DNA of 64,000 nucleotides from an uncultured Gemmatimonadales bacterium (GCA_963704805.1 CAVPHS010000001.1:594496-658495); one strand, 5' to 3'; counted from the first letter of the stretch, positions 12,206 to 31,167 are shown. Notes: generated from the sequence alone by a model not told the origin. Program-made: numbers and translations.

Positions 12206-13921
12206 ATGGCCGTGGATTCCCCAGTGAACGCTATGTCTCTTCCTTCTGCCCAAGCGGAGCTTGAGCAATGGCGCGCGGTTCGCGCTGTCGTTCTCGCTCG
12301 CGACTCGCACATTTGCAGGGCTTGCGGCGAAACATGCTCTCAGGGCGAAGCCGACGTTCATCATCTGATTCCCCGTGCCGCCGGTGGGGTCGATGACCCC
12401 GCCAACCTGATCACACTGTGCGATGGCTGTCATGCTGCGCACCATCCGAACCTTCAAGGTACGCTTGCTCGCCGGATGATAGAGCGCTGGGGATTGAGGC
12501 TGGCTAGGGCACTGGATTTCCGGCACGAGTTGGCTGGCGTTGATGAATCGCTCGGCGCGGCGATGCGGCTGCTTGGAGTTACCCATCTCCGCACTCCCCA
12601 GCTAGACGTGATTCTCGCGGCCCTCCGAGGCGAGTCACTCCTTCTCGTCAGCGCGACCGGCTCTGGAAAGTCGCTCTGTTTTCAGGTGCCAATCCTGTTA
12701 ACGCGCGGGTGCGGGTTCGTGATTTCACCGTTGAAGGCGCTCATGAGCCAGCAGGTGGCCGACCTTACGATGAGAAAGGTCCCGGGCACCTTCATCAACG
12801 GTGACCTTGGCCCGCACGAAAAGGAGATCCGGTACCAACTGCTAAGGGATGGCGCAATCAAGTTCCTGTATTGCACGCCGGAGCGCTTCGATCCGAGAAT
12901 GGTTCGCCAGGCTGAAGTGGACGAGATCACTGGTACCCGGCCGGCCTACTTGGTGATCGACGAAGCGCATTGCATCGATCGTTGGGGAAATGACTTCCGC
13001 CCGAACTACGGCAAGTTGGGTGCAATTCGCCAGGCGCTTGGCAGCCCGCCGGTGTTGGCGTTCACCGCCACGGCCGGAACGCAGGGCCAGCGCCGCATTC
13101 TCGAATCGCTCGGCATACCAAACGCTCGCGTAGTGGTGACCGGGGTGAACCGACCGAACATCAAGTTCGTCCGTCTGCCGAACATGAAGGACAAGGTGCG
13201 GTTTTCCCTGATCATGAACCTCCTCAGGGTCATGCCGCATGGTCGTGCCATGTTGTTCGTGCCCACGGTCAACACCGGAAAGCAGCTCCAGGAGGGCCTT
13301 CGCTCGGTGGGATTAGACCTTCCCTTCTTCCACTCCAAACTCGGTACGGCTAACGACCGCGACATGCTGCTGGGCCAGTTCACGGGCCGCGTCGACCCGC
13401 CCGTGAGAGTCGTCATCTGTACCAATGCTTTCGGCATGGGACTCGATTTGCCCGACGTTCGACTCGTGGTTCACTGGCAGCATCCCGCGTCACCGGAAGA
13501 CTACCTTCAGGAATTCGGACGCGCTGGTCGGGATGGCAAGCCTTCGGTCGCTGTCATGTTCACAGCAGAGAGCGACGAAGGATTGCTCAGGTTCATGGCG
13601 GAGAAGACATCCGAGATGGCAGTCGACGACGCGTCCAAGGCCTCGGTGCTCGAAGCCAAGCTCGAAGCAATCAAGGAAATGCGGCGCATTGCGACGTCGA
13701 GAGGCGTCTGCGTTCGCAACAATATCGTCCAGTACTTTGGGGAAATGCCTTCGCCTCGGCGTAGAAGCATCGCCGTACGAATTGCGGAATGGGTGCTCTC
13801 ACGGTCCGTCCGTCTCCGACGAACCCGATTCTGCTGTGACCGGTGCGATCAGGTGAATGTCGACGATGTCGACGACGTCATCGCTTGGGCCGTCGGGGTT
13901 TTTGCACAGGAGGGTAGGTAG
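12206..13921 (+). CDS. HNH endonuclease domain fused to RecQ-family DEAH helicase
   Basis: HNH: CRACGE..DVHHLIPRAAGG..NLITLCDGCHAAHH. Helicase: SATGSGKSLCFQ, VIDEAHCIDRWGNDFRPNY, FTATA, RQLQEFGRAGRDG-like and a Zn-binding CCDRCD tail. Start uncertain (12116, 12206 or 12233). Confidence 0.75.
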   Translation: MAVDSPVNAMSLPSAQAELEQWRAVRAVVLARDSHICRACGETCSQGEADVHHLIPRAAGGVDDPANLITLCDGCHAAHHPNLQGTLARRMIERWGLRLARALDFRHELAGVDESLGAAMRLLGVTHLRTPQLDVILAALRGESLLLVSATGSGKSLCFQVPILLTRGCGFVISPLKALMSQQVADLTMRKVPGTFINGDLGPHEKEIRYQLLRDGAIKFLYCTPERFDPRMVRQAEVDEITGTRPAYLVIDEAHCIDRWGNDFRPNYGKLGAIRQALGSPPVLAFTATAGTQGQRRILESLGIPNARVVVTGVNRPNIKFVRLPNMKDKVRFSLIMNLLRVMPHGRAMLFVPTVNTGKQLQEGLRSVGLDLPFFHSKLGTANDRDMLLGQFTGRVDPPVRVVICTNAFGMGLDLPDVRLVVHWQHPASPEDYLQEFGRAGRDGKPSVAVMFTAESDEGLLRFMAEKTSEMAVDDASKASVLEAKLEAIKEMRRIATSRGVCVRNNIVQYFGEMPSPRRRSIAVRIAEWVLSRSVRLRRTRFCCDRCDQVNVDDVDDVIAWAVGVFAQEGR

Positions 13922-14577: not shown

Positions 14578-16332
14578 TCAGTCCTCCGGAGGACAATTTT
14601 CGGCACCCAAGACCTTTAGCAGAGAATCCTGGTCCATCGCATGGCGTGCCTCAATGATCGAGATGAGAGAATCCAGCGACCGCCGGTTGCTGGGTGATGA
14701 CTGGCGTTTCGATTTCAGGACCGCAAGACTGTCCAGGTCAGCCTGGGCTCGGCGCTGGGCAGCCTGGACAGCCGAAGACGCTTTTGTGCAGGGTCCCTGT
14801 GGGAGAGATAAGCACCCCGTCGGCTGGCCGTGTTCAGGTGCCAGGACATTATCGAGTCGGACGTGGGGGCGCTCTGCGGACACGAGGAATTCTTCCTTGC
14901 GCGCACCAATGGTCACCGTCACGCTGGTCGCACGCAGGTAGTTTCCCTGGACTGCAGTTTCAGGTCCGCATTTCTTTCCCATCTTAGAGAGTGCCACTCG
15001 AATGGACGAACTGTCACCGAATTCGATTCGTGCGGGAACCGCAGCCATTCTCAGGGAATCTGTCGACAGAACCCAGACAAATACTAGTCGCGGTGGATGA
15101 TCAGGTAGCGATGCGATGACAGCGGGAAGCAAGTTTTCCGTGACGATCCCCCTCGGGACGTGGACGCCGCTCCGGTCTAGATCGCCCTCGCCCGTCAGAG
15201 AATACTGTCCGCTGTCGATCAGTGCCTGAGCAGAATACCCCGCCACTTCACGAGAATAACTCGTGCGCTGAACGTAGCTGTGAATGGTGGACATACCACG
15301 ATCGACTTCGGTCCGCCACTCGTCAGTGTACTGGTCTTTGTTCCCCTCATTCCACGTCGATGAGACGTAGCGCTCGAGAATTGCAGTCCCCTCGGGAGAA
15401 AGAGTCTTCGAGTAAACGGTCCTCGTACTTATAGTTCGTATATGGTTGTTGTCCTTCTCAAAGAACGTCACTCCATCAAGGACATCGGGATCGATCCGCA
15501 ACGAATCGTTCACGCTCGCCTTTGCCAGAGACGGGTCAGGCGGCGCTTCGCGGTGAACCGAAGACCCAAAGGTCACACGAACAGCTTCGGAAAGAGGCAC
15601 CGCGTCCTGCGAAGCAATCGTCCCTAGCTGAGCGCGAACGTAGTTGATTGGAAGCGCGAAGTTCAGGTTTTGCGCCCCTGGTTCTGCCCATGTCCCGAGG
15701 ACGAGCCCGATCGCATGACCCCCCTCATCGAGTATGGGTCCACCGCTACTCCCGGGCGACGTAGGAGCCGAAATCTGAAAGAGCCTGTGATCCCCCTGGT
15801 TCCTCACACCGCTGAGTAGCCCATCACTGACCGTTGCCTCAAACCCCTCTGGTGCCCCAACAACGTAGATCCGCTGTCCCACCGAAGTACTATCCGAATT
15901 GCCAAGGGTGATCGTAGGGAGATCGACTCCCTCCATTTTGATGATGGCATAATCGAACCGGTGATCCACGCGATAGACTCCGGTAACTACCCGCGTGTCC
16001 CCGTCTGGCAGGCGAACGGAAGCTGAAGAGGCGCCGTCGATGACGTGAGCGGCCGTGACTAACAACCCGTTGGGAGAGATAACGAAGCCGCTCCCAGTAA
16101 AACCGCCACTCGCCTTCTTAACCGCGATGAATGCTGTTGCCCTCCTCGCCGCGTCGATGGTTCGAGCGCCCGCGGGATGCTGCGCATGAAGCGCGGAGGA
16201 GAACGACCCCAGGACAAGAAGGAGGCCGATATCTCTCGGACTTAGTTTTGTGGCCAAGAATGAAGAACTCCGTGCGTACGGTGCCCCCTTACGGGATGCG
16301 CCTAAGGTGCGGCGCCAGGCTTTCATGTTCAC
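14578..16332 (-). CDS. Secreted trypsin-like serine protease (S1C-like) with ~330-aa unknown C-terminal region
   Basis: GSGFVISPNGLLVTAAHV (His), DYAIIKM (Asp), GSSGGPILD (Ser), and an N-terminal signal/TM. Confidence 0.75.
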   Translation of the reverse strand: MNMKAWRRTLGASRKGAPYARSSSFLATKLSPRDIGLLLVLGSFSSALHAQHPAGARTIDAARRATAFIAVKKASGGFTGSGFVISPNGLLVTAAHVIDGASSASVRLPDGDTRVVTGVYRVDHRFDYAIIKMEGVDLPTITLGNSDSTSVGQRIYVVGAPEGFEATVSDGLLSGVRNQGDHRLFQISAPTSPGSSGGPILDEGGHAIGLVLGTWAEPGAQNLNFALPINYVRAQLGTIASQDAVPLSEAVRVTFGSSVHREAPPDPSLAKASVNDSLRIDPDVLDGVTFFEKDNNHIRTISTRTVYSKTLSPEGTAILERYVSSTWNEGNKDQYTDEWRTEVDRGMSTIHSYVQRTSYSREVAGYSAQALIDSGQYSLTGEGDLDRSGVHVPRGIVTENLLPAVIASLPDHPPRLVFVWVLSTDSLRMAAVPARIEFGDSSSIRVALSKMGKKCGPETAVQGNYLRATSVTVTIGARKEEFLVSAERPHVRLDNVLAPEHGQPTGCLSLPQGPCTKASSAVQAAQRRAQADLDSLAVLKSKRQSSPSNRRSLDSLISIIEARHAMDQDSLLKVLGAENCPPED

Positions 16333-17955: not shown

Positions 17956-18019
17956 CCTCACCCCCCGGCCCCTCTCCCGTTCGCTACGCTCAGGGGAGGC
18001 CCTTTCGGAAGAGGGGGAG
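17956..18019. repeat. Family-A element, long-loop variant
   Basis: cctcaccccccggcccctctccc...ggaagagggggag. Confidence 0.6.
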
Positions 18020-18043
18020 TGTAAGCAGACAGGCGCTCTGGGT

Positions 18044-18088
18044 GAAGGTCACGATCCTTCGCGCCTCGCGGCGCTCAGGACAACGCCT
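18044..18088. repeat. Family-B repeat, degenerate copy
   Basis: gatccttcgcgcctcgcggcgctcaggacaacgc. Confidence 0.5.
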
Positions 18089-18121
18089 GGCGCGCCCTGT
18101 TCACTCGAGGACCTCTTTGAT

Positions 18122-18420
18122 TTACGCCGTCCTGAACTCCATCCACATCGGTCTGTGATCTGATATGTGGTACTTCACGAAGGTCTTGTAGTCCTTTGTG
18201 CCGCGGGTCTGATAGAGATCGGGGAAGAGCACCTGGTCGTAGTCGAAGACTCCCATTTCCCTGTGAACGCCTGGCCGACAACGCCGGGGAAGAACGCGAT
18301 CTGGTCGTAGTGCGCGCCGAAGCAATCGAAGAGCCAACCTGAGAGGAGCGTCCAGGCACCTGCAGGCCCTTTTTCGTGAGAGCCTTGTAGATCGGATCCG
18401 CGGGGTCACATCAACGAATG
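18122..18420 (-). pseudogene. Remnant of an endonuclease/exonuclease/phosphatase (EEP) family gene
   Basis: Terminal peptide GVFDYDQVLFPDLYQTRGTKDYKTFVKYHISDHRPMWMEFRTA carries the SDHRP motif typical of EEP C-termini. The upstream part is scattered over other frames. Confidence 0.55.
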
Positions 18421-18568
18421 TGCCGCGTTTCCGCCTGTCAGTGCCGCAAAAACGCCCTAGCTCCGCTCGTTCGGCCCCGGCATCATTTCCCTTGTCAGCT
18501 GAGGCCGGAGGAGCACTGCTGGCCGCATTTCGGTCCGGGCGCTACTTAATGTCTCGGAGGGCACCACT

Positions 18569-19111
18569 ATGAACGCGATCAGACATCTCGTCGTCGGATG
18601 GATGCTCACGGCTTTGCTGCCGGTGCAAGCAGCTACAGCCCAAGCTCCCTCTGGCGCCACCGCTCGGTGTCGGGACAGTTCGTATTCGTATAGTACAAAC
18701 CACAGTGGCACGTGCTCGCATCACGGAGGCGTCGCCCAATGGCTCTCGCCGAGCACGGCAGCGCCGGCATCGAAGTCCCGTGATTCTGGCCCGGTTCGCC
18801 AAGGGACTCTTACCGCAGCTCAAGCAAGGGATCACGTGGGCGAGACCGCGACGGTGTGCGGCGTCGTATCGAGCGCGCGGTACGCTGCGTCCAGTCGCGG
18901 TCAGCCGACGTTTCTGAATCTCGATGAACCCTATCCGGCCCAGATTTTCACCATCGTCATCTGGGGATCAGCGCGCGGTGCGTTTACGCAAGCGCCTGAG
19001 GCAGCCTACTACGGCAAGAAGATCTGCGTTACCGGACTCATCGATACGTACCGCGGGAGCCCTCAGATCGTGGTTGGCAATCCCGATGCGATTCGAGTGA
19101 TGACGCACTAG
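18569..19111 (+). CDS. Secreted DUF3761-domain protein
   Basis: Signal peptide, then ATARCRDSSYSYSTNHSGTCSHHGGV, which matches the DUF3761 motif as I recall it. C-terminal beta-rich domain. Confidence 0.65.
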   Translation: MNAIRHLVVGWMLTALLPVQAATAQAPSGATARCRDSSYSYSTNHSGTCSHHGGVAQWLSPSTAAPASKSRDSGPVRQGTLTAAQARDHVGETATVCGVVSSARYAASSRGQPTFLNLDEPYPAQIFTIVIWGSARGAFTQAPEAAYYGKKICVTGLIDTYRGSPQIVVGNPDAIRVMTH

Positions 19112-19148
19112 TCTTGCGTTTCCCATCGCGGGCGAGAGGCGGATCCGT

Positions 19149-19505
19149 ATGAAACTTGCCATGATCGTGGGCACGCTGTGTTTGAGCCTTGTCTCGATTT
19201 CGGGAATGGCCTGGTCCCCTCATCCAGGCGTGGCATCCTGTGATGCCTCCGACTTGAGTGAGATCGTTGGTTACACTGCCGTTACATCGACCAATGTGGT
19301 TGGCGAATTCGAAGGAGCGGACTACGATAAGCCGGTGAAGCTTGACAACGGAATGATCTTCGAGTTCACAGAATACAACTATTCGTACAGCTATCGCCCT
19401 GATGTTATTATCTTCGCTCGGTCCGCAACCATCCAAGACCGTCAAGTCAATTTGTACAAGCTATTGATCGCGGATGAACTCTACGATGTTATTCGCGTGC
19501 GATAG
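19149..19505 (+). CDS. Hypothetical secreted protein
   Basis: MKLAMIVGTLCLSLVSISG signal-like N-terminus. Lower-GC codon usage. No family recognised. Confidence 0.5.
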   Translation: MKLAMIVGTLCLSLVSISGMAWSPHPGVASCDASDLSEIVGYTAVTSTNVVGEFEGADYDKPVKLDNGMIFEFTEYNYSYSYRPDVIIFARSATIQDRQVNLYKLLIADELYDVIRVR

Positions 19506-19937
19506 CCAGTGACGGGGTCGCCAATTCGAGTAGTTCGAAGTGAGTCCGCCCAATCGAGAACGCAGAATTTCGTCGTGAGTTCACCGACCGCATGATGGGA
19601 TACCTCTTTAACCCCGCAACGACGTGAGAGGGAAGACCAGTCGAGTTCGTTGCTAGCTTCCCACCCGCACCCTGAATGCCTTTTGATAACCGTTTCGAAT
19701 CATAGATGACCGATCGTCGTTCAATCGGCGAATGACGGACTCCAAGTCCTGATGAACCTGGCTAATGCACGAATTCGCGTAGTCAGGATCGGCGACGTGA
19801 AAGGGCTGGACCAGGAATGGGCCAGTCGATGGCTGAATCTGGCCGCGACATGACTGGTCGAGCTCAGGTAGGTAAACGGACGTCTGGATTGTCGACCTGC
19901 AGTTGACACAGTCTGAAACGACTGTAATTCATATCGT

Positions 19938-20300
19938 GTGGCTATTCCTCGGTGGGTCAAGTCTCTCGTCGTCTACCTATCCGGGGGTACCCTTGCCATC
20001 GGGTCGGTCTCATCTGTCGCGGTCGCGCAAAACCCGAAACCAAAGCCACCCGTCGAAAAAGATTCGACAAGAATCCTCATTGATTCCGGGTACACGCGTT
20101 TGGGAGAGAAGTTTCTCCTCACCCGTGCCGACTCTCTCGTGGTTCGTGCAAATGGTGACACCGCGCACTTTAAGCGGAGCCACCCGACGACGGGCCACGC
20201 GTCGCACGCGTCGCACGCGTCTCACGCCTCACATGCCTCACACGCCTCGCACTCATCGCACTCCTCACACTCGTCCCATTCCTCGGGCGGCTGGATCTGA
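19938..20300 (+). CDS. hxsA: His-Xaa-Ser repeat precursor protein (HxsA-like)
   Basis: 120 aa, GTG start, signal-like N-terminus. C-terminus is GHASHASHASHASHASHASHSSHSSHSSHSSGGWI: 6x HAS plus 4x HSS. Confidence 0.8.
   Translation: MAIPRWVKSLVVYLSGGTLAIGSVSSVAVAQNPKPKPPVEKDSTRILIDSGYTRLGEKFLLTRADSLVVRANGDTAHFKRSHPTTGHASHASHASHASHASHASHSSHSSHSSHSSGGWI
20196..20285 (+). repeat. Ten tandem 9-nt His-Xaa-Ser coding repeats
   Basis: cacgcgtcg-type units read directly. Codon choice varies between units, so conservation is at the peptide level. Confidence 0.9.
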
Positions 20301-20307
20301 CCTGCCG

Positions 20308-20652
20308 GTGAGTACCAACGATGGGGCTCCAGCTTTCGAAACAGTCGAGAGGACGGACGATTTCGTTCTACTGCGGGTCGATACTAAGCTGTATGCTCGC
20401 GAGTCCCTCTTCCGCGCGTGCTACCAGTTCACCGATCGTTGTTACTTGTTTCTGCGCTCTGATGGCGACAACGCGATCGTCGTCGAGATTCGTCGTAGAC
20501 CCGCGTCCGCGCCGCTCGGCGAACTGCTTGGTGACTTCGGCAACGAGCTCCTGAATCAACAAGTCCGGACCGACATTGCGCGAGAAACCCGCGCGATTCG
20601 GGAGATGATCGTTGCCCAGGCGTTCCGAGAGTCCGATTTGCATGCGGGGTAG
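20308..20652 (+). CDS. hxsD: HxsD-like small protein
   Basis: In-frame GTG at 20308. FVLLRVDTKLYARESLFRACYQFTDRCYLFL...GNELLNQQVRTDIARETRAIREMIVAQAF resembles the LLNDYxLRE-motif family named HxsD in TIGRFAMs (from memory). Confidence 0.65.
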   Translation: MSTNDGAPAFETVERTDDFVLLRVDTKLYARESLFRACYQFTDRCYLFLRSDGDNAIVVEIRRRPASAPLGELLGDFGNELLNQQVRTDIARETRAIREMIVAQAFRESDLHAG

Positions 20653-20872
20653 GAGCGTGGTGCTGTCTCATACGATCTACCCGCGATCGGCATTGGAATC
20701 GGCGCGGTCAGCCTTTGCGGGGCTGTGTGACATCGATGTACGGAGTGACGGAGCGGATGTGCGTGTAACGATATCGGCCCGGGATGGCGCGCCCCTTGAA
20801 GCGGTTGATGAGTTCCTGTCATACGTGCTCTCGGCGGCGATTGAGTCTCACCTCGCCAGCTCGACTCAATGA
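20642..20872 (+). CDS. Second HxsD-like small protein (diverged paralogue)
   Basis: VVLSHTIYPRSALESARSAFAGLCDIDVRSDGADVRVTI..AVDEFLSYVLSAAIE parallels the N-terminal two-thirds of 20308..20652. Its start overlaps the previous stop, and its stop overlaps the next ATG (ATGA). Confidence 0.5.
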   Translation: MRGRSVVLSHTIYPRSALESARSAFAGLCDIDVRSDGADVRVTISARDGAPLEAVDEFLSYVLSAAIESHLASSTQ

Positions 20873-22365
20873 CGAAGGTGGTCTTTCATCCTCCCGCTCG
20901 CTATGCCGGGCCTGGGGACTATGAGCTTTTGCCATTTCGCTTCATTGATCTGGACGATCGCAAGGTCGTCGTCAACGAAGTCGGCGAGTACGAACTGCTC
21001 GACCAGAACGCGTTCCAGCAGTTCGTAAGACACTCGCTCTCTCCGACCTCGGACACCTATCGCAACCTCAAGGCCAAGCATTTCCTCCGGGACCCAGAGT
21101 CGTTGGTCCCGCTTAGACTTCTGTCCACCAAATACAGGACCAAGCGCGCGTTTCTAGAGGGGTTTACTAGGCTCCACATCTTCGTCGTCACGCTGCGGTG
21201 CGATCACTCCTGTCACTATTGCCAGGTGTCGCGCGTCAGCATGAACCGCTCAAAGTACGACATGTCACCAGAGTCCGCGCGAGCGGCGCTCGATTGGGTG
21301 TTTCGCTCCCCCTCCCGATATCTCAAGATCGAATTCCAAGGCGGCGAGCCGCTGCTCAATATCGAGCTCATCAGAGACATTACAGAGGAGGCGAAGCGGC
21401 GGGCCGTGGCCTCGGAGAAAGAGGTTGAGTTCGTCGTGGCAACGAACCTTTCCTTCCTGAGCGACGACATTCTGGCGTTCCTGAAGGCGCATAACATCGG
21501 CATCTCGACATCCCTCGATGGGCCCGCATTCATCCACAACGTCAACCGCCCTCGGCCTGGTAATGACGCTCACGAAACGACGGTGCGCGGCATAGCCCGG
21601 GCGCGAGCAGCCCTCGGACGGGGTGCTGTTTCAGCCTTGATGACAACGACACGGCTGAGTCTTGAGCATCCCGAGGCGATCGTGGATGAATACATCAAGC
21701 AAGGTTTTGACCGAATCTTCCTGCGCCCCATCAGTCCGTATGGGTTTGCGGTGCGGACGCAGCAGAAGACCGGCTATGACGTGCAGGCCTTCCTGGAGTT
21801 CTACAAACGCGCGTTAGATCGAGTGATTGCGATCAATCGGAGCGGCAAATGGATGGTCGAGATCTACGCGCGCATTTTGCTGACAAAAATCCTGACTCCC
21901 TTCGCTACAGGCTATGTCGACCTGCAATCGCCGGCTGGCGCTGGAGTTAGCGTTGCGGTCTACAGCTACGATGGCGACGTCTATGCAACGGACGAATCGC
22001 GGATGCTCGCCGAGATGGGCGACCGCACCTTTCGTTTAGGCAACGTTCATTCGAACAGTTATGAAGAGGTGTTCGGCGGTCCACTGCTGAGGTCCCTCGT
22101 CGCGGCCTCCTGTGTCGAGTCCCTTCCCGGTTGCTCAGACTGTGCATTCCAAACCTTTTGCGGCGCGGATCCCGTGGAAAACTACGCCACCCAGGGGGAT
22201 GTCTTCGGCCATCGACCGACGAGTCGCTTCTGTGCTCGGAATATGGAGATCATCAGGCATCTACTCCGTCTATACCACAGCGGAGATGCGTTCATTCAAC
22301 AGTTGTTTTGGAGCTGGGTCGAAAACGTGCCGGTGGATTCCCTTACGGAACGCTTACCAAACTAA
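20869..22365 (+). CDS. hxsB: Radical SAM/SPASM maturase (HxsB-like)
   Basis: CDHSCHYCQ (CxxxCxxC) and GGEPLL. C-terminal Cys-rich SPASM-like region CVESLPGCSDCAFQTFCGADP. Confidence 0.8.
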   Translation: MTKVVFHPPARYAGPGDYELLPFRFIDLDDRKVVVNEVGEYELLDQNAFQQFVRHSLSPTSDTYRNLKAKHFLRDPESLVPLRLLSTKYRTKRAFLEGFTRLHIFVVTLRCDHSCHYCQVSRVSMNRSKYDMSPESARAALDWVFRSPSRYLKIEFQGGEPLLNIELIRDITEEAKRRAVASEKEVEFVVATNLSFLSDDILAFLKAHNIGISTSLDGPAFIHNVNRPRPGNDAHETTVRGIARARAALGRGAVSALMTTTRLSLEHPEAIVDEYIKQGFDRIFLRPISPYGFAVRTQQKTGYDVQAFLEFYKRALDRVIAINRSGKWMVEIYARILLTKILTPFATGYVDLQSPAGAGVSVAVYSYDGDVYATDESRMLAEMGDRTFRLGNVHSNSYEEVFGGPLLRSLVAASCVESLPGCSDCAFQTFCGADPVENYATQGDVFGHRPTSRFCARNMEIIRHLLRLYHSGDAFIQQLFWSWVENVPVDSLTERLPN

Positions 22366-22367
22366 CG

Positions 22368-23585
22368 ATGCGCTTATGGTCAGCTGGGCAGGCACACGGC
22401 ATCACGCGGCCAGTGCTGGGCAGAGTTACGACGCAGCCAGTACCCGAGGGCGAACGTCACGACTTCATCGCGTATGGGAGCGAAACCGAGCTAGCCCGTT
22501 TCGGACCTGAGCTCGCTCGCTATCCGGGTGTCCTGTGTCGCGGCTCCCTGGGCGCCATCCCCAAGACAGCGGTCATTCATTCGGCCCCCCATCTGGAATA
22601 CTTGTCTGATGGTGACGTCGTTCGACTGTCGCCGGACGGAACGATCAACGTGCTGTATCGGCGCTCTTCACACTACAACACGATTCTCACCACGGAGCGC
22701 TGCAACAGTTTCTGCCTGATGTGTTCGCAGCCACCCAAACCAGCGGACGACTCATACCGCGTTGCCATGATTCTGCGCCTGCTCGAGCTCATCGACCTAG
22801 AGGCGATCGAATTGATCATCAGCGGCGGTGAACCAACGCTCCTGGGCGGACGCTTTCTGGATATCATCGAGAAAGCCAGGGTGACCCTGCCAAGGACAGC
22901 CCTGCACGTTTTGACGAACGGTCGGCACTTCAAGAGCAAAGACTTTGCACGTCGCCTCGCGGATATCGATCACCATGATTTGATGCTGGGCATTCCGCTC
23001 TACTCCGACATTCCCGAACTGCACGACTACGTCGTCCAAGCGTCCAATGCGTTTGATGAGACGCTCGAAGGGTTCTACAACCTGGCGGCGACAGGAGTGC
23101 GGCTGGAGCTACGTGTTGTTTTGCATAAACAAACCTGCGAACGCCTACCCCGACTGGCTGAGTTCGTGACCCGGAATCTCCCTTTCGTCGAGCACGTCGC
23201 ACTCATGGGGCTCGAGATGTTCGGGTTCACTCCGCGTAATCTGGACGTGCTGTGGATCGACCCTGCAGACTACGCGCCGCAACTCGAAGAGGCCACTTTG
23301 ACGTTGGCCACGAGAGGAATGAACGTTTCGATCTACAATCATCAGCTCTGCACGATTCCGCGATCGCTCTGGCCGTACGCACGAAAGTCCATATCTGACT
23401 GGAAGAATGTGTACCTGGACGTCTGCGCTTCGTGTGGAGTGAAGGACTTCTGCGGTGGATTCTTCCAGTCTGCGACCAAGAAGCACAGCGCTCACATAGC
23501 GCCCTGTGCGGCGTTAACAGGCAGGGCACTTAACTACATGCGCAAGCTCCACAGCCTGGATTCCGCTGCGACGCGGGTGAACTAA
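22368..23585 (+). CDS. hxsC: Radical SAM protein (HxsC-like)
   Basis: CNSFCLMCSQ (CxxxCxxC) and SGGEPTLL. C-terminal CASCGVKDFCGG. ATG lies 3 nt after the HxsB stop. The listed start at 22131 overlaps hxsB and is rejected. Confidence 0.75.
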   Translation: MRLWSAGQAHGITRPVLGRVTTQPVPEGERHDFIAYGSETELARFGPELARYPGVLCRGSLGAIPKTAVIHSAPHLEYLSDGDVVRLSPDGTINVLYRRSSHYNTILTTERCNSFCLMCSQPPKPADDSYRVAMILRLLELIDLEAIELIISGGEPTLLGGRFLDIIEKARVTLPRTALHVLTNGRHFKSKDFARRLADIDHHDLMLGIPLYSDIPELHDYVVQASNAFDETLEGFYNLAATGVRLELRVVLHKQTCERLPRLAEFVTRNLPFVEHVALMGLEMFGFTPRNLDVLWIDPADYAPQLEEATLTLATRGMNVSIYNHQLCTIPRSLWPYARKSISDWKNVYLDVCASCGVKDFCGGFFQSATKKHSAHIAPCAALTGRALNYMRKLHSLDSAATRVN

Positions 23586-24904
23586 TGCTGCGTGTCGAAG
23601 GGTTGGGCTCGTTTGTGGACCGCACTGCAGAAGATACCCTCCCCCAAAGACGTATCGCGGGCGTATCGATTTCAGTGGCCCACCAGGGGATGCTCCTATA
23701 TGCGGATGGTCATGGTTACGCGAACCTCATAGAGGGTACGAAGGCAACAGCGTCAACGGTGTACAGTCTAGGGTCGATGACAAAGCAGTTCACGGCGGTT
23801 GCGGTGCTGCAGCTCGTCGAGCGAGGACGCATTGCGTTGGATGCTTCGATCGGCTCGGCGCTCCCACTAAAGAAACCGTCGAGATCTGCGGTCCCGATCC
23901 GCCATTTGTTGTCGCACACAGCCGGCATTCGTGCCGACGTGGAGCTGGCGATGCTTGCCGATTCGCGTGGCCCCAATGCCATGTCTCGAGATGCAGCTTT
24001 GTCGCTGTTCACTGACGATGTATTCGATGCGGGGCCGGGTGAGGTGTGGCGGTACAGCAACTTTGGGTACTACCTGTTGGGGCTGTTGATTGAAGAAATC
24101 GCCGGAATGAGCTACTCGGACTATCTCAAGACAGAGATTCTCCACCCGGCTGGCCTGACCAACACGACGTGCGGCGCCGAGTCAGTTCCCATGGGATTGC
24201 TCGCCCAGGGCTACGCCGAGCGGCAGGGTGAATTCGCTTCGGTCGATACGCCGGCGACCAGCCAGACGTTCTCTTCCGGCGCGCTCTTTTCAAACGTGCT
24301 GGACCTTCAAATGTGGCGGGCTGCCATCGAAGATGGGCGGCTGATCCAGACCAGCACGTATCGACAAATGACCAGTCCAGCTGTTCTACTGAACGGCGAG
24401 GCAACCAGCTATGGGCTCGGACTCTTCCTTGGGGCTTGCGGGCCATTTCGTGAGATCGGCCATGACGGCACTAGCGGCGGATTCTCTGGGCAGGCTGCGT
24501 ACTACCCAGATGTAGACCTGTCCGTTGTTGTGTTAATGAATTCCGAACGACACGAAGCAGAGCGGCTCGAGAAGATGATCAGTCGGCGTGTGTTAGGCGT
24601 CTCGGAGCCCACGGCCCAGAATCAGAAGATGATTGTCTCGGAAGGTGAGCTAGTTAAGTATACAGGCATCTATCTACATAAGGGTCTTGAACTGCCTGTT
24701 GAGACACAGGAGTCCGGTCTTGTTATCGTCATTCCAAACAGACGAATTCTGCCCCTGACGTATCAGGGCAATAACATGTTTGTGGAAGCTGACGATCCAT
24801 CCATCCAAATTGAATTCATGGTCCAGTCGGCACGCGCAGACGGCTTTGTCGTGTCGAGGGAAGGTAAGACGATTGCGAATGCCCGCCGCTTATCAGGCAG
24901 TTGA
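23585..24904 (+). CDS. Serine hydrolase (beta-lactamase/DD-peptidase fold), translationally coupled to hxsC
   Basis: SMTKQFTAV (SxxK) and YSNFGY. The ATG overlaps the hxsC TAA by 1 nt (aacTAATGctg). Confidence 0.8.
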   Translation: MLRVEGLGSFVDRTAEDTLPQRRIAGVSISVAHQGMLLYADGHGYANLIEGTKATASTVYSLGSMTKQFTAVAVLQLVERGRIALDASIGSALPLKKPSRSAVPIRHLLSHTAGIRADVELAMLADSRGPNAMSRDAALSLFTDDVFDAGPGEVWRYSNFGYYLLGLLIEEIAGMSYSDYLKTEILHPAGLTNTTCGAESVPMGLLAQGYAERQGEFASVDTPATSQTFSSGALFSNVLDLQMWRAAIEDGRLIQTSTYRQMTSPAVLLNGEATSYGLGLFLGACGPFREIGHDGTSGGFSGQAAYYPDVDLSVVVLMNSERHEAERLEKMISRRVLGVSEPTAQNQKMIVSEGELVKYTGIYLHKGLELPVETQESGLVIVIPNRRILPLTYQGNNMFVEADDPSIQIEFMVQSARADGFVVSREGKTIANARRLSGS

Positions 24905-24912
24905 ACCTGGCC

Positions 24913-26211
24913 TCACCTGCCTAATACTGAAAGAATTGCGCTAGCCCGATACGCGTCTGGCGTGGTGATGAATAGAGCGGAACCTGAACCGTCCTTAGTC
25001 AGCGCAAGCAGATTACGATCATAATCGAGCTGAACATGGAGCAACTTCTTTAGGGGAATGGACGTCGTCCCATCATGGATCAGCAGGAGTCGTTTGTCGG
25101 TGATGAGCAAGGCCCCTTCCTTCTCAATTACCGGGGCGCGGACCTTGTATCGCTGACCGGCGCTCTGAAAGGACCGCACCGTTTTGATTTTTAGCAGCCG
25201 CGCGTCGCCTTCGTAATAACAGACCTCACCCTCGGGAAGCGAGACACTTGGCTTAATCGGTTCAAGGGCTCCGCTGAGAATAGACCTTATCTGTTTGAGA
25301 TGCACGACGAATCCAAGCTCCGGAAGAACTGCGTGCTCGTCGATCTCCAGTTCTTCTCTGATGTGTCGTAGCGCGTCCTCCTCTTCCTCGGTGAGTTCAT
25401 GATCAGCGACGCATTCTAGGTAAACTCTTCGAAAAACATTCAAGTGCGATTCGTGCAAGAACTCTTCCGTCAAGCTGCACAATTGGCTTATCTGACGAAG
25501 GAGGGTTTTTTCTTCATCGGAAACCCGACCGTCCGTCACGATCGTTTCGAGGGCATTCAGGTAAGAGGTCTTCCCATAGTATTCCCGATCGGAGTCTGTG
25601 ACGCGCGGATCGCTAATTGCAGATCGGAGCTCAGCCATCTCTGTCGGGGACAGTTCTCTGGTGGTTGAGAATCTCTCAGCGAGCCGCGTGCCGAGTGCTG
25701 CACCTCGACGATTCTTCCTCCAGGCATGAATCATTGGGGCAGGCCAGAGGGAGAGCAGAGCGGCGAGTACCACAGTTGCGATTGTGCGAACTTGGGGACT
25801 AAGAAGGGCTTGATTGCGCAGTATTGCACCGCCAATCACGGCGAGAGTTGGCAAAAGAAGATAAACGGCTATGCTAAGTGTCTTTCGCCGCAGTGTTGAT
25901 TCCAGAGTGGGGAGGGATGAGGACGGGATACTCGCGAGAGGGTAAGTGACATTGGCATCCCCGCTAATCGTAAACGGATCCTCCGGTTCTGATACACCAG
26001 CCTCCGATAGTCTATTGGCACTCGGATTTGAAGCACTGCCGAGCGATTGTCGGAAATACAGACCACCACGCCCCGCGTGCACGTAACCACGCCCGGTCGA
26101 CGTAATACCAATACGCGCTCCGGGAACACCAACGGACAGTCCCAGTCCGCTCTTGGAGAGATTCAGACGCAGAGGTCCTGCACTGAAACTCTTGCGAAGG
26201 TAGAAGCCCAC
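24913..26211 (-). CDS. DUF4236-domain membrane protein with TerB-like motifs and C-terminal bacterial PH-like domain
   Basis: N-terminus MGFYLRKSFSAGPLRLNLSKSGLGLSVGVPGARIG (DUF4236). Two TM helices. DGRVSDEEKTLLRQI and ELTEEEEDALRHI motifs. Tail LLITDKRLLLIHDG. Domain calls other than DUF4236 are tentative. Confidence 0.6.
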   Translation of the reverse strand: MGFYLRKSFSAGPLRLNLSKSGLGLSVGVPGARIGITSTGRGYVHAGRGGLYFRQSLGSASNPSANRLSEAGVSEPEDPFTISGDANVTYPLASIPSSSLPTLESTLRRKTLSIAVYLLLPTLAVIGGAILRNQALLSPQVRTIATVVLAALLSLWPAPMIHAWRKNRRGAALGTRLAERFSTTRELSPTEMAELRSAISDPRVTDSDREYYGKTSYLNALETIVTDGRVSDEEKTLLRQISQLCSLTEEFLHESHLNVFRRVYLECVADHELTEEEEDALRHIREELEIDEHAVLPELGFVVHLKQIRSILSGALEPIKPSVSLPEGEVCYYEGDARLLKIKTVRSFQSAGQRYKVRAPVIEKEGALLITDKRLLLIHDGTTSIPLKKLLHVQLDYDRNLLALTKDGSGSALFITTPDAYRASAILSVLGR

Positions 26212-26309
26212 GGGTGAAGTGCCTCAGTAGTACAAGAAAACAGGGCGACAAGTGTTTCCGAGTTGCTGTGCCAATTCGGAGCCTAGCTCAAAATCGCAGC
26301 CGTCGACAC

Positions 26310-26513
26310 TCACCTATTGCACGCACACCCCGGCCCGACGTTGCACGTCGCTGTTGCCGCGATACATGTGTCGCCGCACGCCTTCCCAGTCGAGCAGACC
26401 TTACAGCAACCCGGTCCTGTTCCATTTCCACAAGCTGCGGTGAGTGGTGGACCACTTGCGGCCCCGAGCGCGAACAGAAGCGATCCGATAAGACGCAGTT
26501 TCTTCCAAAGCAT
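26310..26513 (-). CDS. Small secreted cysteine-rich protein (7-Cys module)
   Basis: MLWKKLRLIGSLLFALGAASG signal, then CCKVCSTGKACGDTCIAATATCNVGPGCACNR. The same Cys spacing occurs in the tail of 27649..28662. Confidence 0.6.
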   Translation of the reverse strand: MLWKKLRLIGSLLFALGAASGPPLTAACGNGTGPGCCKVCSTGKACGDTCIAATATCNVGPGCACNR

Positions 26514-29684: not shown

Positions 29685-29911
29685 CGCGGGCGGTGCCGGC
29701 GACGCGGCGGCGGCCGCCGAGTGAGAGGAGAGCGAAACGTCTTCCAGCTCGGCGACGCTTCCCGGAACAGCTGCATCAAGTCCCGCTCGAAGACAATGTC
29801 GTCCAGGAGCCGGTCGATGACCTCCGTCTCGGTCTCGAGCTTGAGATACTCGCGCGCCTGCCGCAGCTTCGCGGCATCAATATTGAGCGTCTTGCGCACC
29901 TTCCGTCCCAT
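29681..29911 (-). CDS. vapB: Type II antitoxin (VapB-like)
   Basis: MGRKVRKTLNIDAAKLRQAREYLKLETETEVIDRLLDDIV. 4-nt overlap with vapC. Confidence 0.6.
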   Translation of the reverse strand: MGRKVRKTLNIDAAKLRQAREYLKLETETEVIDRLLDDIVFERDLMQLFREASPSWKTFRSPLTRRPPPRRRHRPR

Positions 29912-30319
29912 CACACACCCCGCCATAATCGTGTACGCACAATATGCATACGGTATCCGTATGGCGCGACTCGGATCACTAAAACGCGGGCGGTGTCGCA
30001 CCGGCGCCGTATCGTCGTGGCAATGACAAAAACCGAGCGCTGGCTCAACCTCCTCGCCTTCCTCCTCGACCGCCACTACCCGGCCTCGCGCGAGGAGATT
30101 CTGAGCCAGGTCTCAGACTACAAAGAGGACTGGGTCGGCGGCGACGCGCGCGCGCGCGAGACGGTCCGCCGCAAGTTCGAACGCGACAAGAAGGAGCTGA
30201 AGGACCTCGGCGTCACGCTCGAGCCGCTGAAAGAGAAGATCCTCGCGGATCACGCAGATCAGGAAGTCGAAGCCTACCAGCTCAAGCCTCGCGATTTCTA
30301 TCTACCCTATCTCAGCGTT

Positions 30320-30370
30320 CCCCCTCTCCGGGAACGGAGAGGGGGTCAGGGGGTGAGGACGGGGGTGAGG
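30320..30370. repeat. Family-A palindromic element with double GGGGGTGAGG tail
   Basis: ccccctctccgggaacggagagggggtcagggggtgaggacgggggtgagg. In frame, encoding PPLRERRGGQGVRTGVR. Confidence 0.85.
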
Positions 30371-30726
30371 CCCTATTTCTTGAACGAGGTCGCGCTCTCA
30401 TCAGATGATCTCCCCGTTCTCCGTCGCGCCGCCGAGCGCATCGCCGCGCTCACCGATACGCCCCTCGGCACCGCTGCACGCTCGGCGATCCGCAAGCTGT
30501 CGTTCGATCTTCCGGAGCTGAACGTCGGTTCCGAAGAGCGAGCCTTCACGGCACCCGCCGAGGTCGACGCCCAGTTCGCGATTCTGCGACAGGCGGTCGA
30601 ATCGCGGCGGGCGGTCCGCTGCCGCTACTACTCGATTCGACGCGACGTAGAGGGCGAGCGGGTGATCGAGCCGTACGGACTGATGCTGTCGTGGGGACAT
30701 TGGTACTGCGTCGCCCGTCTCGCGCC

Positions 30727-30756
30727 CTGGCCCCCTCTCCGCACGCGGAGAGGGGG
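30727..30756. repeat. Family-A palindromic element (core only)
   Basis: ctggccccctctccgcacgcggagaggggg inside the WYL domain coding region. Confidence 0.8.
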
Positions 30757-31167
30757 ACGATCGAGTGCGGGTGTTCCGGCTCGATCGCATGAAGGACGTC
30801 CATATAGTAGAAGGGGAGCAGGGCGAGTTCACCGTGCCCAAGGGCTTCAAGATCGCGAGCTACCTGAACCGCGCCCCGTGGGAGCTGTCCGACGAGAAGC
30901 CGGTCACGGCGCGCGTGCGCATCAACTTCCCGCAGTCGCGCTGGGTCATCGGCGAGCGGCTCGGCAAGGTCGTCAAAGCGGTGACCGACGACGCCGGCAG
31001 CGAGTTCGAATTCGAGGTCCGCGCCGTCGATGCCTTCGTGCGCTGGCTGCTCCCGCTCGGCAAGCAGGTCGAAGTCCTTTCGCCAACCGTCGATCAAGAA
31101 ACAGCTCGACGAAGCTCGCGCGGCACCGGGCTCTGCACGCGCACACGCACCACGCCCACGCACCTAG

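What the first reader, a model, noticed from the sequence alone, without database searches (positions are those of the whole stretch)
19938..23585. Complete His-Xaa-Ser (Hxs) radical-SAM peptide-maturation cluster
A 120-aa protein with a signal-like N-terminus ends in ten consecutive His-Xaa-Ser triplets (6x HAS, 4x HSS). It is followed, with overlapping or abutting stops and starts, by small HxsD-like proteins and two radical-SAM enzymes carrying CxxxCxxC (CDHSCHYC, CNSFCLMC). The first enzyme also has a SPASM-like Cys-rich tail. From memory, TIGRFAMs names exactly this gene set HxsA/HxsB/HxsC/HxsD. To my knowledge neither the chemistry on the HxS repeat nor the biological role has been determined. 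That makes this the best candidate in the window for an essentially uncharacterised RiPP-like or metal-binding peptide system. It sits in an AT-richer accessory segment.
Basis: partly seen in the sequence, partly recalled or inferred. Interest (0 to 1): 0.85.

Follow-up and report, generated by a model that had tools for sequence, protein, structure and literature searches.

The report
His-Xaa-Ser radical-SAM anti-phage operon
This is a real, complete His-Xaa-Ser (Hxs) gene cluster in a Gemmatimonadales genome, but the family has long been catalogued and a 2026 paper showed a distant E. coli relative is an anti-phage system that blocks phage DNA entry, so it is a new member of a known kind.

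Summary
Window 19938-23585 (+) encodes a 120-aa signal-peptide-like protein ending in ten uninterrupted His-Xaa-Ser triplets. Tightly abutting genes follow: hxsD, an hxsD-like paralogue, hxsB and hxsC. All four score above NCBIfam trusted cut-offs. HxsA itself scores below the cut-off of every named HxsA model, and gene callers miss it.

Li et al. (Nat Commun 2026, PMC13128918) showed that E. coli HXS is an anti-phage system. There, HxsB, HxsC and HxsD mature HxsA (N-terminal cleavage, a +8 Da change in the last repeat) into a periplasmic effector that delays phage DNA entry.

The window's enzymes are only 35-37% identical to that type. Its HxsA lacks the peptidoglycan-binding domain, has no basic residues in its repeats, and the gene order is A-D-D'-B-C. 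That layout is the norm in 80 environmental loci, where 77 have an HxS-repeat ORF next to hxsD. Those loci sit among defence and mobile genes and often next to secreted nucleases. A Leptospira phage carries the same layout.

Best reading: a defence module of the known HXS family, confidence about 0.6 for the defence function. Moderate-to-low interest.

The parts
19938..20300 (+). hxsA: 120-aa precursor/effector with a signal-like N-terminus, a conserved pre-repeat motif, 10 HxS repeats and a GGWI tail
   Evidence: ORF and translation. Sub-threshold hits to HxsA4 (39.7 bits, cut-off 55) and HxsA2 (19.1, cut-off 48), and no TIGR03979 hit. Homologous to the HxsA of Gemmatimonas MAG L001, including the GEKF(L/I)LT..DS.V.RA motif and the SGGWI end. 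Not called by gene finders on identical metagenome contigs, and the exact sequence is absent from the protein collection.
19938..20027 (+). Signal-peptide-like N-terminus of HxsA (aa 1-30, AVA|Q)
   Evidence: Two basic residues, then a hydrophobic stretch and an AxA site. Judged by eye; no signal-peptide predictor was available. Related HxsA proteins have the same layout.
20106..20126 (+). Conserved pre-repeat motif EKFLLTR (aa 57-63), a candidate recognition element for the maturation enzymes
   Evidence: A hydrophobic-hydrophobic-L-x-(R/K)-like motif precedes the repeats in most of the 80 loci and in Klebsiella HxsA (DLVIAP). In E. coli the corresponding residues 23-47 are required for activity. 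The role as a recognition element is inferred.
20196..20285 (+). Ten tandem His-Xaa-Ser codon triplets (6 HAS, 4 HSS)
   Evidence: Variation between units is mainly synonymous.
20308..20652 (+). hxsD (114 aa)
   Evidence: TIGR03976 73.9 bits, cut-off 50. 89 homologues carry Pfam PF27806 HxsD. AlphaFold model has pLDDT 88: beta2-alpha-beta2 plus a long C-terminal helix.
20660..20872 (+). hxsD-like paralogue (70 aa)
   Evidence: NF038315 HxsD_rel 43 bits, cut-off 41. 31% identical to HxsD over 68 aa. Found at the same position in 10 of 80 related loci. AGGAG lies 5 nt upstream of the GTG.
20869..22365 (+). hxsB: radical SAM maturase with a SPASM-like (five-Cys) C-terminal domain
   Evidence: TIGR03978 626.3 bits, cut-off 370. 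Pfam Radical_SAM. 35% identical to Klebsiella HxsB; CDHSCHYC and C-x2-C-x5-C align with the residues mutated in E. coli.
22368..23585 (+). hxsC: second radical SAM maturase (405 aa)
   Evidence: TIGR03977 387.8 bits, cut-off 267.9. 37% identical to Klebsiella HxsC; CNSFCLMC and C353-x2-C356-x5-C362 are conserved. Start as called on metagenome contigs.
23585..24904 (+). Beta-lactamase/S12-family serine hydrolase whose start overlaps the hxsC stop by 1 nt (TAATG); a possible locus-specific operon member, not a core Hxs gene
   Evidence: PF00144 199 bits. Best NCBIfam hit is D-aminopeptidase at 106.6 bits, far below its cut-off of 443. SMTK motif; no N-terminal hydrophobic signal stretch is visible in the translation, judged by eye. 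A same-strand neighbour of this family occurs only in L011 among 80 loci.
18569..19111 (+). Secreted DUF3761 + OB-fold protein upstream; a possible accessory gene
   Evidence: PF12587 62.9 bits. The C-terminal domain gives a sub-threshold OB-fold hit (PF01336, E=0.001, 19.4 bits against cut-off 27). JGI names homologues 'DNA/RNA endonuclease YhcR' and some carry PF01336. Homologues of the OB domain lie within 6 kb of hxs in 8 of 80 loci from several lineages.
24913..26211 (-). DUF4236 / TerB-like protein, convergent neighbour; resembles a PADLOC defence candidate
   Evidence: PF14020 55.8 bits. PADLOC PDC-S48 E=7.6e-11. DUF4236 proteins sit directly after hxsC in 5 Verrucomicrobiota loci and nearby in L019 and L027.

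Best explanation
This is a complete operon of the known His-Xaa-Ser (HXS) family in a Gemmatimonadales chromosome, and it most likely works as an anti-phage module.

Proposed course of events:
1. hxsA is translated as a 120-aa precursor. The ORF and its conservation are shown; translation is inferred.
2. In the cytoplasm, HxsC acts in complex with the small protein HxsD, perhaps also with the extra HxsD-like paralogue. The SPASM-like enzyme HxsB acts alongside. Together they recognise HxsA, probably through the conserved EKFLLTR-type motif before the repeats. They then carry out radical-SAM chemistry on the HxS array. In E. coli this chemistry is a +8 Da change in the last repeat, S-H-x-S-S followed by a Gly run (SHRSSSGGG in Klebsiella HxsA). 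The window ends with S-H-S-S directly followed by G-G. Transfer of this step to the window is inferred by homology.
3. The N-terminus is removed and the peptide is exported. This is inferred from the signal-like N-terminus and from the E. coli data.
4. The mature His/Ser-rich peptide interferes with incoming phage DNA at the cell envelope. This is inferred from the E. coli phenotype and from the genomic context here.

This HxsA has no peptidoglycan-binding domain and no Lys or Arg in its repeats. Any DNA contact would therefore have to rely on histidine protonation, on the basic segment at residues 31-86, or on partner proteins such as the neighbouring secreted OB-fold protein.
For: Family membership: HxsB, HxsC, HxsD and the HxsD-like protein are all above NCBIfam trusted cut-offs.

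Catalytic residues: the CxxxCxxC motifs and the auxiliary C-x2-C-x5-C cysteines align with the residues whose mutation abolishes or reduces E. coli HXS function.

Substrate: 77 of 80 related loci have an HxS-repeat ORF beside hxsD, with the same pre-repeat motif.

Function of the family: Li et al. 2026 report >=10^3-fold protection against most of the 110 of 113 coliphages that were restricted, delayed T7 DNA entry, periplasmic HxsA, the +8 Da modification, and an HxsC-HxsD complex.

Context in the window: a low-GC island carrying an HNH-RecQ-like helicase, a trypsin-like protease with weak PADLOC hits, a PDC-S48-like gene and a WYL-domain protein.

Context across loci: the 138 nearest neighbours include pAgo, a CBASS cyclase, SIR2-Aga, AbiEi, AriA, Old and SspA. 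They also include integrases, resolvases, transposases and relaxases. The commonest neighbour family is a secreted SNase nuclease, in 8 loci.

Mobility: the same A-D-B-C layout with a short HxsA is carried by Leptospira phage LE1-like KF114877 and by plasmids.
Against: - The only experimental data come from a distant subtype: HxsB is 35% and HxsC 37% identical, and HxsD shows no BLASTP similarity.
- In E. coli the peptidoglycan-binding domain of HxsA is required. The window's HxsA has none.
- The published electrostatic model leans on basic residues in the repeats. Here X is only Ala or Ser, and the repeat tail carries about +0.6 charge at pH 7.
- Across the family, 42 of 80 HxsA proteins have no Lys/Arg in the repeats and some have HDS or HES repeats.
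- PADLOC 2.0.0 has no HXS model, so no independent defence-database call was possible.
- The neighbour survey has no genome-wide background control.
Confidence: 0.6

Rival explanations
1. The cluster makes a modified periplasmic or secreted His/Ser-rich peptide with a role outside phage defence. Candidate roles are metal (Ni/Zn/Cu) binding or buffering, or another envelope function. On this view the E. coli phenotype does not transfer to this subtype.
For: Ten evenly spaced histidines with neutral neighbours look more like a metal-chelating array than a DNA-binding one. There is no peptidoglycan anchor. The enzymes are only 35-37% identical to the characterised ones. Ion-channel genes recur next to hxs in 5-6 loci.
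Against: No metal transporter, metallochaperone or metal regulator was seen next to hxs in the window or among the recurrent neighbours. The recurrent neighbours are nucleases, an OB-fold protein, methyltransferases, defence genes and mobile-element genes. The system rides on a phage and on plasmids.
Confidence: 0.2
2. It is a defence module, but the mechanism differs from the published electrostatic peptidoglycan-anchored barrier. The short HxsA would act as a free periplasmic factor together with DNA-directed partners, so that stalled or exposed phage DNA is bound or cut. Those partners would be the secreted OB-fold protein here and SNase or HNH nucleases in other loci.
For: A secreted OB-fold protein lies 827 nt upstream on the same strand. 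OB-fold homologues occur in 8 loci, SNase in 8 (plus the Methylobacter plasmid) and HNH in 3-4, often directly after hxsC. Neutral or acidic repeats are common.
Against: Most loci (about 60 of 80) have none of these partners within 6 kb. The E. coli four-gene system is sufficient on its own. The OB-fold call is sub-threshold and that protein family is very abundant (785 hits), so chance adjacency is not excluded.
Confidence: 0.15
3. The HxS frame is not the real product: the overlapping 19903 frame or the minus-strand ORF 20010-20225 is translated instead. Or the cluster is a decaying remnant.
For: Automatic gene callers chose the minus-strand 71-aa ORF or an extended hxsD instead of hxsA on identical metagenome contigs. 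HxsA is below the cut-off of every HxsA HMM.
Against: The HxS reading frame is conserved at the same position in 77 of 80 loci across many phyla, with variable codons. GC3 is highest in this frame (0.68 overall, 0.80 in the repeats). HxsD homologues are 93-151 aa and their first ~20 residues are unconserved, so the upstream extension is not HxsD. All five genes are intact with catalytic motifs.
Confidence: 0.02

Closest known systems
E. coli / Klebsiella HXS anti-phage system (Li et al., Nat Commun 2026, PMC13128918; e.g. Klebsiella plasmid NZ_CP032173 hxsD-B-C-A)
   Same: Same four protein families, HxsA/B/C/D. The two rSAM enzymes have conserved CxxxCxxC and C-x2-C-x5-C motifs. HxsA has a signal peptide, a hydrophobic pre-repeat motif and tandem HxS repeats, the last followed by Ser/Gly.
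   Different: - HxsB is 35% and HxsC 37% identical, and HxsD is not detectable by BLASTP.
- Gene order is A-D-D'-B-C instead of D-B-C-A.
- HxsA is 120 aa rather than 211-214 aa. Its repeats are at the C-terminus, there are 10 rather than 5, X is Ala/Ser rather than Arg/Ser, and it has no Ser-rich linker or peptidoglycan-binding domain.
- There is an extra HxsD-like paralogue and a fused-in serine hydrolase gene.
- The host is Gemmatimonadales rather than Pseudomonadota.
His-Xaa-Ser system as defined in silico (Haft & Basu 2011, cited in PMC9062424; NCBIfam TIGR03976-03979, NF038296, NF038309, NF038313, NF038315)
   Same: HxsB, HxsC, HxsD and HxsD_rel pass the curated cut-offs. The A-D-B-C layout with a short HxsA is annotated in public records, for example Leptospira phage KF114877.
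   Different: HxsA fits none of the four named HxsA models (best is HxsA4 at 39.7 bits against 55). The same is true of the nine environmental HxsA proteins tested from eight related loci.
Radical SAM/SPASM peptide-maturation (RiPP) systems such as SCIFF/ScfB, PapB ranthipeptide, QhpD and CbpB
   Same: HxsB gives partial hits (E 1e-21 to 1e-32) to these maturases. It acts on a small repeat-bearing precursor encoded alongside.
   Different: All those hits are far below their cut-offs. HxsB has five rather than seven C-terminal cysteines. The small partner HxsD does not have a PqqD-like recognition fold: its best solved-structure matches are weak Rpb11-like or secretion-chaperone-like folds with E>6e-3. 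In E. coli the product is a protein effector kept by the cell, not a released natural product.
Prokaryotic viperins (pVip), the other radical-SAM anti-phage family
   Same: Radical SAM domain; weak PADLOC pVip hits for HxsB (33 bits) and HxsC (25 bits).
   Different: The hits cover only the shared rSAM core. Viperins make chain-terminating nucleotides and have no peptide substrate.

Membership tests
His-Xaa-Ser (HXS) system | HxsB radical SAM maturase above the TIGR03978 trusted cut-off | tested here: met
   626.3 bits against 370, full-length match 1-466/466
His-Xaa-Ser (HXS) system | HxsC radical SAM maturase above the TIGR03977 trusted cut-off, adjacent to hxsB | tested here: met
   387.8 bits against 267.9; hxsC starts 2 nt after the hxsB stop
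His-Xaa-Ser (HXS) system | HxsD small protein (TIGR03976) | tested here: met
   73.9 bits against 50. Homologues carry PF27806. A second paralogue passes NF038315 at 43 bits against 41.
His-Xaa-Ser (HXS) system | Adjacent small protein with a signal peptide and tandem His-Xaa-Ser repeats (HxsA) | tested here: met
   Ten uninterrupted repeats and a signal-like N-terminus, 7 nt upstream of hxsD
His-Xaa-Ser (HXS) system | HxsA recognised by a curated HxsA model (TIGR03979, HxsA2, HxsA3 or HxsA4) | tested here: not met
   HxsA4 39.7 bits against 55; HxsA2 19.1 against 48; no TIGR03979 or HxsA3 hit. Nine environmental HxsA proteins from eight related loci also fail, so this reflects model coverage, not absence of the feature.
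His-Xaa-Ser (HXS) system | Intact rSAM CxxxCxxC and auxiliary-cluster cysteines in both enzymes (required for function in E. coli) | tested here: met
   HxsB C111/115/118 and C422/425/431; HxsC C112/116/119 and C353/356/362. These align with the Klebsiella residues, and the E. coli mutants are described.
Experimentally characterised enterobacterial HXS subtype | HxsA carries a C-terminal peptidoglycan-binding domain (required for defence in E. coli) | tested here: not met
   No Pfam domain in the 120-aa protein, and the repeats are followed by only GGWI. Klebsiella HxsA has the domain.
Experimentally characterised enterobacterial HXS subtype | Gene order hxsD-hxsB-hxsC-hxsA (99.6% of systems in Li et al.) | tested here: not met
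   The order here is hxsA-hxsD-hxsD'-hxsB-hxsC. This order is the rule in the 80 related loci.
Experimentally characterised enterobacterial HXS subtype | Basic residues enriched in the HxS repeats | tested here: not met
   X is Ala (6) or Ser (4), and there is no Lys or Arg in residues 87-120
His-Xaa-Ser (HXS) system | Confers phage resistance by delaying DNA entry; HxsA receives the +8 Da modification and N-terminal cleavage | not testable with these tools
   Needs cloning, plaque assays and mass spectrometry
Canonical RiPP rSAM/SPASM pathways | PqqD-like RiPP recognition element, fused or stand-alone | tested here: not met
   The HxsD model (pLDDT 88) gives no solved-structure match at E<1e-3, and none of the top matches is PqqD-like. 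The HxsB and HxsC N-termini were not modelled.
Canonical RiPP rSAM/SPASM pathways | Seven-cysteine SPASM domain | tested here: inconclusive
   HxsB has five C-terminal Cys (C-x6-C-x2-C-x5-C ... C). No SPASM-domain model appeared among the 25 best of 52 NCBIfam hits shown.

The most novel reading that the evidence does not exclude
The short-HxsA, anchor-less subtype seen here dominates in Acidobacteriota, Gemmatimonadota, Verrucomicrobiota and other environmental phyla. It may work differently from the E. coli model.

On this reading, a free C-terminal HxS array with neutral or even acidic X residues is modified by HxsB/C. It would then act through metal- or pH-dependent chemistry, or together with secreted DNA-directed partners (OB-fold protein, SNase, HNH), rather than as an electrostatic peptidoglycan-tethered DNA trap.

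In this locus an operon-encoded S12/beta-lactamase-family hydrolase might supply the unexplained N-terminal processing step.
Probability: 0.2. Interest if true: 0.6.

Novelty: new member of a known kind. Interest (0 to 1): 0.3.

Why it matters
The HXS family now has an assigned biological role, blocking phage DNA entry. That role is known only from one enterobacterial representative, and its authors reported 99.7% of systems in Pseudomonadota.

This locus and the 80 relatives examined show that the enzyme pair is widespread in soil and freshwater phyla. There the effector has a different architecture: a short HxsA, or HxsA with other C-terminal domains, and often no basic residues in the repeats. 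These are cases the published electrostatic model does not obviously explain.

Such loci are natural test cases for two questions. The first is what the conserved His and Ser positions are really for. The second is what the +8 Da chemistry is. A ten-repeat, sequence-simple substrate like this one could help mass-spectrometric work.

A practical point also follows. hxsA genes of this type are missed by gene callers and by the curated HxsA models.

Tried and rejected
- **HxsD as a PqqD-like recognition element.** The AlphaFold model is confident, but Foldseek against the PDB gave only weak Rpb11-like or secretion-chaperone-like matches. Rejected as a PqqD fold; the chaperone-like resemblance is too weak to claim.
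- **Beta-lactamase-family gene as a conserved Hxs component.** It is a same-strand neighbour only in L011 among 80 loci. Other occurrences are distant or on the other strand, and the family is abundant in these phyla. Kept only as a locus-specific possibility.
- **Island borders.** There are no tRNA genes in the window, no convincing flanking direct repeats, and no integrase within 15-28 kb. The borders rest on GC content alone.
- **Regulatory RNA or promoter upstream of hxsA.** Rfam found nothing at E<=1 in 18000-26500. Promoter and terminator scans were at or below the shuffled expectation.
- **PADLOC.** Version 2.0.0 has no HXS model, and the only hits are weak viperin matches through the shared rSAM core.
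- **Synteny with relatives.** Only hxsB and hxsC match other loci at the DNA level, so flanks gave no taxonomic or island information. The taxon came instead from a 90%-identity cluster of a core gene named Gemmatimonadales.
- **Alternative reading frames over hxsA.** Rejected; see the rival explanations.
- **Solved structures for the DUF3761-OB protein.** Nothing useful was found.

Full report
**What is there**

Window 19938-20300 (+) encodes a 120-aa protein. It has four parts:
- a signal-like N-terminus (R5, K8, hydrophobic residues 9-30, AVA|Q);
- a basic linker;
- ten uninterrupted His-Xaa-Ser triplets (HAS x6, HSS x4; nt 20196-20285);
- the tail GGWI.

At the DNA level the repeat is a 9-nt tandem array. 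Its units differ mainly at synonymous positions, and GC3 is highest in this frame (0.80 in the repeats). Selection is therefore acting on the peptide.

Five further genes follow on the same strand with 7-nt, 7-nt, -4, 2-nt and -1 junctions:

| Gene | Coordinates |
|---|---|
| hxsD | 20308-20652 |
| hxsD-like paralogue | 20660-20872 |
| hxsB | 20869-22365 |
| hxsC | 22368-23585 |
| beta-lactamase/S12-family hydrolase | 23585-24904 |

**Family tests**

| Protein | Model | Bits | Cut-off |
|---|---|---|---|
| HxsB | TIGR03978 | 626.3 | 370 |
| HxsC | TIGR03977 | 387.8 | 267.9 |
| HxsD | TIGR03976 | 73.9 | 50 |
| HxsD-like | NF038315 | 43 | 41 |
| HxsA | HxsA4 (NF038313) | 39.7 | 55 |
| HxsA | HxsA2 (NF038296) | 19.1 | 48 |

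HxsA gave no TIGR03979 hit. This is a property of the models, not of this gene. [quoted passage not shown] All nine environmental HxsA proteins tested, from eight related loci, also fall below every cut-off.

Gene callers also miss the gene. On two metagenome contigs carrying the identical HxsB, hxsA was not called. One contig had a 71-aa minus-strand ORF called in its place, and the other had an extended hxsD. The exact HxsA sequence is absent from a 15-billion-protein collection.

HxsB has the CDHSCHYC motif plus five C-terminal cysteines (C415, C422-x2-C425-x5-C431, C455). HxsC has CNSFCLMC plus C353-x2-C356-x5-C362.

**What is known**

A literature search found Li et al., Nat Commun 2026 (PMC13128918). 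Their main findings for the E. coli operon:
- hxsD-B-C-A restricts 110 of 113 coliphages without abortive infection and without blocking adsorption.
- T7 DNA entry is delayed, and escape mutations map to the ejectosome proteins gp15 and gp16.
- HxsA (214 aa) has a signal peptide, five HxS repeats and a peptidoglycan-binding domain. It is cleaved at the N-terminus, carries a +8 Da modification in SHRSS (the last repeat), is periplasmic and binds DNA.
- All four genes, both sets of cluster cysteines, the HxsD motifs, every repeat and the peptidoglycan-binding domain are required.
- HxsC and HxsD form a complex.
- The chemistry of the +8 Da change is unresolved.

The family itself was defined in silico by Haft & Basu (cited in PMC9062424).

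**How this locus compares**

A Klebsiella plasmid operon of the characterised type (L081) is only distantly related. HxsB is 35% identical and HxsC 37%, with the catalytic cysteines aligned. HxsD shows no BLASTP similarity, although both pass TIGR03976.

Klebsiella HxsA has the repeats HRSHSSHRSHSSHRS near its N-terminus, then a Ser-rich linker and a peptidoglycan-binding domain. The window's HxsA lacks the anchor, places ten repeats at the C-terminus and has only Ala or Ser at X. The repeat tail carries about +0.6 charge at pH 7 and +7.5 at pH 5.5.

**Relatives**

A scan of one genome per GTDB species found 408 confirmed HxsB relatives, and the best 80 loci were examined. The closest is a Gemmatimonas MAG at 64% identity. 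The rest come from many phyla:
- mainly Acidobacteriota and Verrucomicrobiota;
- also Eremiobacterota, Melainabacteria/Nostoc, Nitrospirota, Omnitrophota, a CPR bacterium, Dehalococcoidia, Bacteroidota and Proteobacteria.

The window itself is Gemmatimonadales. A core gene lies in a 90%-identity cluster so named, and the window comes from a 1.83-Mb contig.

Findings across the 80 loci:
- In 77 of 80 an HxS-repeat ORF lies just upstream of hxsD. Two of the three exceptions are cut by contig ends.
- The order is A-D-(D')-B-C, with hxsA divergent in eight Verrucomicrobiota loci.
- The HxsD-like paralogue occurs in 10 loci.
- HxsA is modular. Short forms end 2-5 residues after the repeats, as here (GGWI, GGFA, SRY and similar). 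Long forms add 130-270-aa C-terminal domains, including a peptidoglycan-binding domain in Hymenobacter.
- A hydrophobic pre-repeat motif is shared: KFLLTR here, KYLLKS, KLVLKQ and PFVLER elsewhere, and DLVIAP in Klebsiella. In E. coli it falls in residues 23-47, which are required for activity.
- X in HxS follows S > A > R > Y > G > E, V, T, D. In 42 of 80 proteins the repeats have no Lys or Arg, and some are HDS or HES.
- The median is 7 repeats and the maximum 12.

The window's HxsA aligns best with the Gemmatimonas one, sharing GEKF(L/I)LT..DS.V.RA and the SGGWI end.

**HxsD**

An AlphaFold model built from 43 homologues is confident (pLDDT 88). It shows two beta-hairpins around a helix, followed by a 40-residue C-terminal helix.

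Foldseek against the PDB gave no match at E<1e-3. The weak top hits are Rpb11-like subunits, followed by type III secretion chaperones. HxsD is not a PqqD-type recognition element. The HxsD-like paralogue is 31% identical to HxsD; at 70 aa against 114 it is too short to include the full C-terminal helix.

**Context**

The cluster lies in a 15-28 kb segment with GC 0.53-0.61, against 0.62-0.69 elsewhere. Genes in and around this segment:
- an HNH-RecQ-like helicase (12116-13921);
- a trypsin-like protease with weak PADLOC hits (14578-16332);
- a DUF4236/TerB-like protein matching PADLOC candidate PDC-S48 (24913-26211, minus strand);
- a degenerate GGDEF protein;
- a WYL-domain protein (29693-31213).

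No tRNA, integrase or flanking repeats mark the borders. No Rfam family or above-chance promoter or terminator was found.

Among the 138 nearest neighbours of the related loci are pAgo, a CBASS cyclase, SIR2-Aga, AbiEi, AriA, Old and SspA. Integrases, resolvases, transposases and relaxases are also present.

Recurrent neighbours:

| Neighbour | Loci |
|---|---|
| Small class-I methyltransferase | 10 |
| Secreted SNase nuclease | 8, plus a Methylobacter plasmid |
| YhcR-type OB-fold secreted protein | 8 |
| HNH endonuclease | 3-4 |
| DUF4236 | 5-7 |
| K+ channel | 5-6 |
| Serine recombinase | 8 |

The window's upstream gene 18569-19111 is a DUF3761 plus OB-fold protein of that same type. A Leptospira LE1-like phage carries a complete hxsA-D-B-C with a 99-aa HxsA. 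Hundreds of plasmids carry hxsB. All this is the signature of a mobile defence module.

**Conclusion**

The finding is a correctly identified, intact member of the HXS family. Its most likely function is anti-phage defence through an rSAM-matured, exported HxsA (confidence about 0.6).

The mechanism cannot simply be copied from E. coli, because the anchor domain and the basic repeat residues are missing. What the family conserves is His and Ser at fixed spacing, the pre-repeat motif and the enzyme trio.

The system is not uncharacterised, so the interest is moderate to low. The residual interest lies in three things:
- the unexplored environmental subtype;
- its possible DNA-directed partners;
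- the unsolved +8 Da chemistry.

Noticed in passing
window 18569-19111 (+); L004, L016, L018, L020, L028, L029, L036, L080: A secreted DUF3761 + YhcR-type OB-fold protein lies 827 nt upstream of hxsA. Close homologues of its OB domain (E 1e-33 to 1e-83) lie within 6 kb of hxs in 8 of 80 loci from Acidobacteriota and Opitutia, several directly after hxsC. The OB-fold call is sub-threshold in Pfam (E=0.001), but JGI names homologues 'DNA/RNA endonuclease YhcR'.
   Followed up: partly
L044, L046, L049, L052, L056, L057, L059, L065 and L082 (Methylobacter plasmid NZ_CP091425): Secreted staphylococcal-nuclease (SNase, some with an Excalibur domain) genes sit next to hxs, often starting within 15 nt of the hxsC stop. 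This is the commonest nearest-neighbour Pfam family (8 of 138). It is not mentioned in the 2026 HXS paper.
   Followed up: partly
L016, L018, L020, L028, L029, L037, L043, L054, L074, L077: A small class-I SAM methyltransferase (PADLOC mad2-like) recurs directly beside hxs in 10 of 80 loci. It is absent from the window.
   Followed up: no
window 23585-24904 (+): A beta-lactamase/S12-family serine hydrolase has a start that overlaps the hxsC stop (TAATG). It has an SMTK motif, no N-terminal hydrophobic signal stretch is visible by eye, and its best but sub-threshold NCBIfam hit is D-aminopeptidase. It could be a locus-specific processing enzyme or an unrelated gene captured in the operon. A same-strand neighbour of this family is seen only in L011.
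   Followed up: partly
window 24913-26211 (-); L048, L064, L066, L068, L072, L019, L027: A DUF4236-domain protein (here with a TerB-like region and a PADLOC PDC-S48 hit, E=7.6e-11) is convergent with the operon. DUF4236 proteins also sit 4 nt after hxsC on the opposite strand in at least three of the five Verrucomicrobiota loci that carry one.
   Followed up: partly
L083 (Leptospira phage LE1-like KF114877, 78952-82261): A phage genome carries a complete hxsA-hxsD-hxsB-hxsC cluster with a 99-aa HxsA, next to a 'mobilome CxxCx11CxxC' protein and an IS66 transposase. This is compatible with prophage-encoded exclusion of other phages.
   Followed up: partly
window 19938-20300; metagenome contigs: hxsA is not called by the gene finders used for public metagenome assemblies. 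They call a minus-strand 71-aa ORF or an over-extended hxsD instead. All four curated HxsA HMMs also miss this HxsA and the nine environmental HxsA proteins tested from eight related loci, so effector genes of this subtype are probably systematically under-annotated.
   Followed up: yes
L003, L005-L007, L009-L011, L017, L021, L022, L024, L026, L027, L030, L031: In Pyrinomonadaceae and Thermoanaerobaculia the HxS repeats are followed by a conserved C-terminal domain of about 230-270 aa. Other lineages have a ~136-aa domain. These domains were not identified here and replace the peptidoglycan-binding domain of the enterobacterial HxsA.
   Followed up: no
window 12116-13921 (+), 14578-16332 (-), 29693-31213 (+): An HNH-RecQ-like helicase fusion, a 584-aa trypsin-like protease with weak PADLOC hits (RT-Protease_XI, LmuA, PDC-M35A) and a WYL-domain protein lie in or next to the low-GC island. 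They may belong to other defence systems.
   Followed up: no
L001 4633-5127 and 5153-5542; L077, L078, L061: Some loci encode two tandem hxsA genes, or one HxsA with two separate HxS arrays.
   Followed up: no
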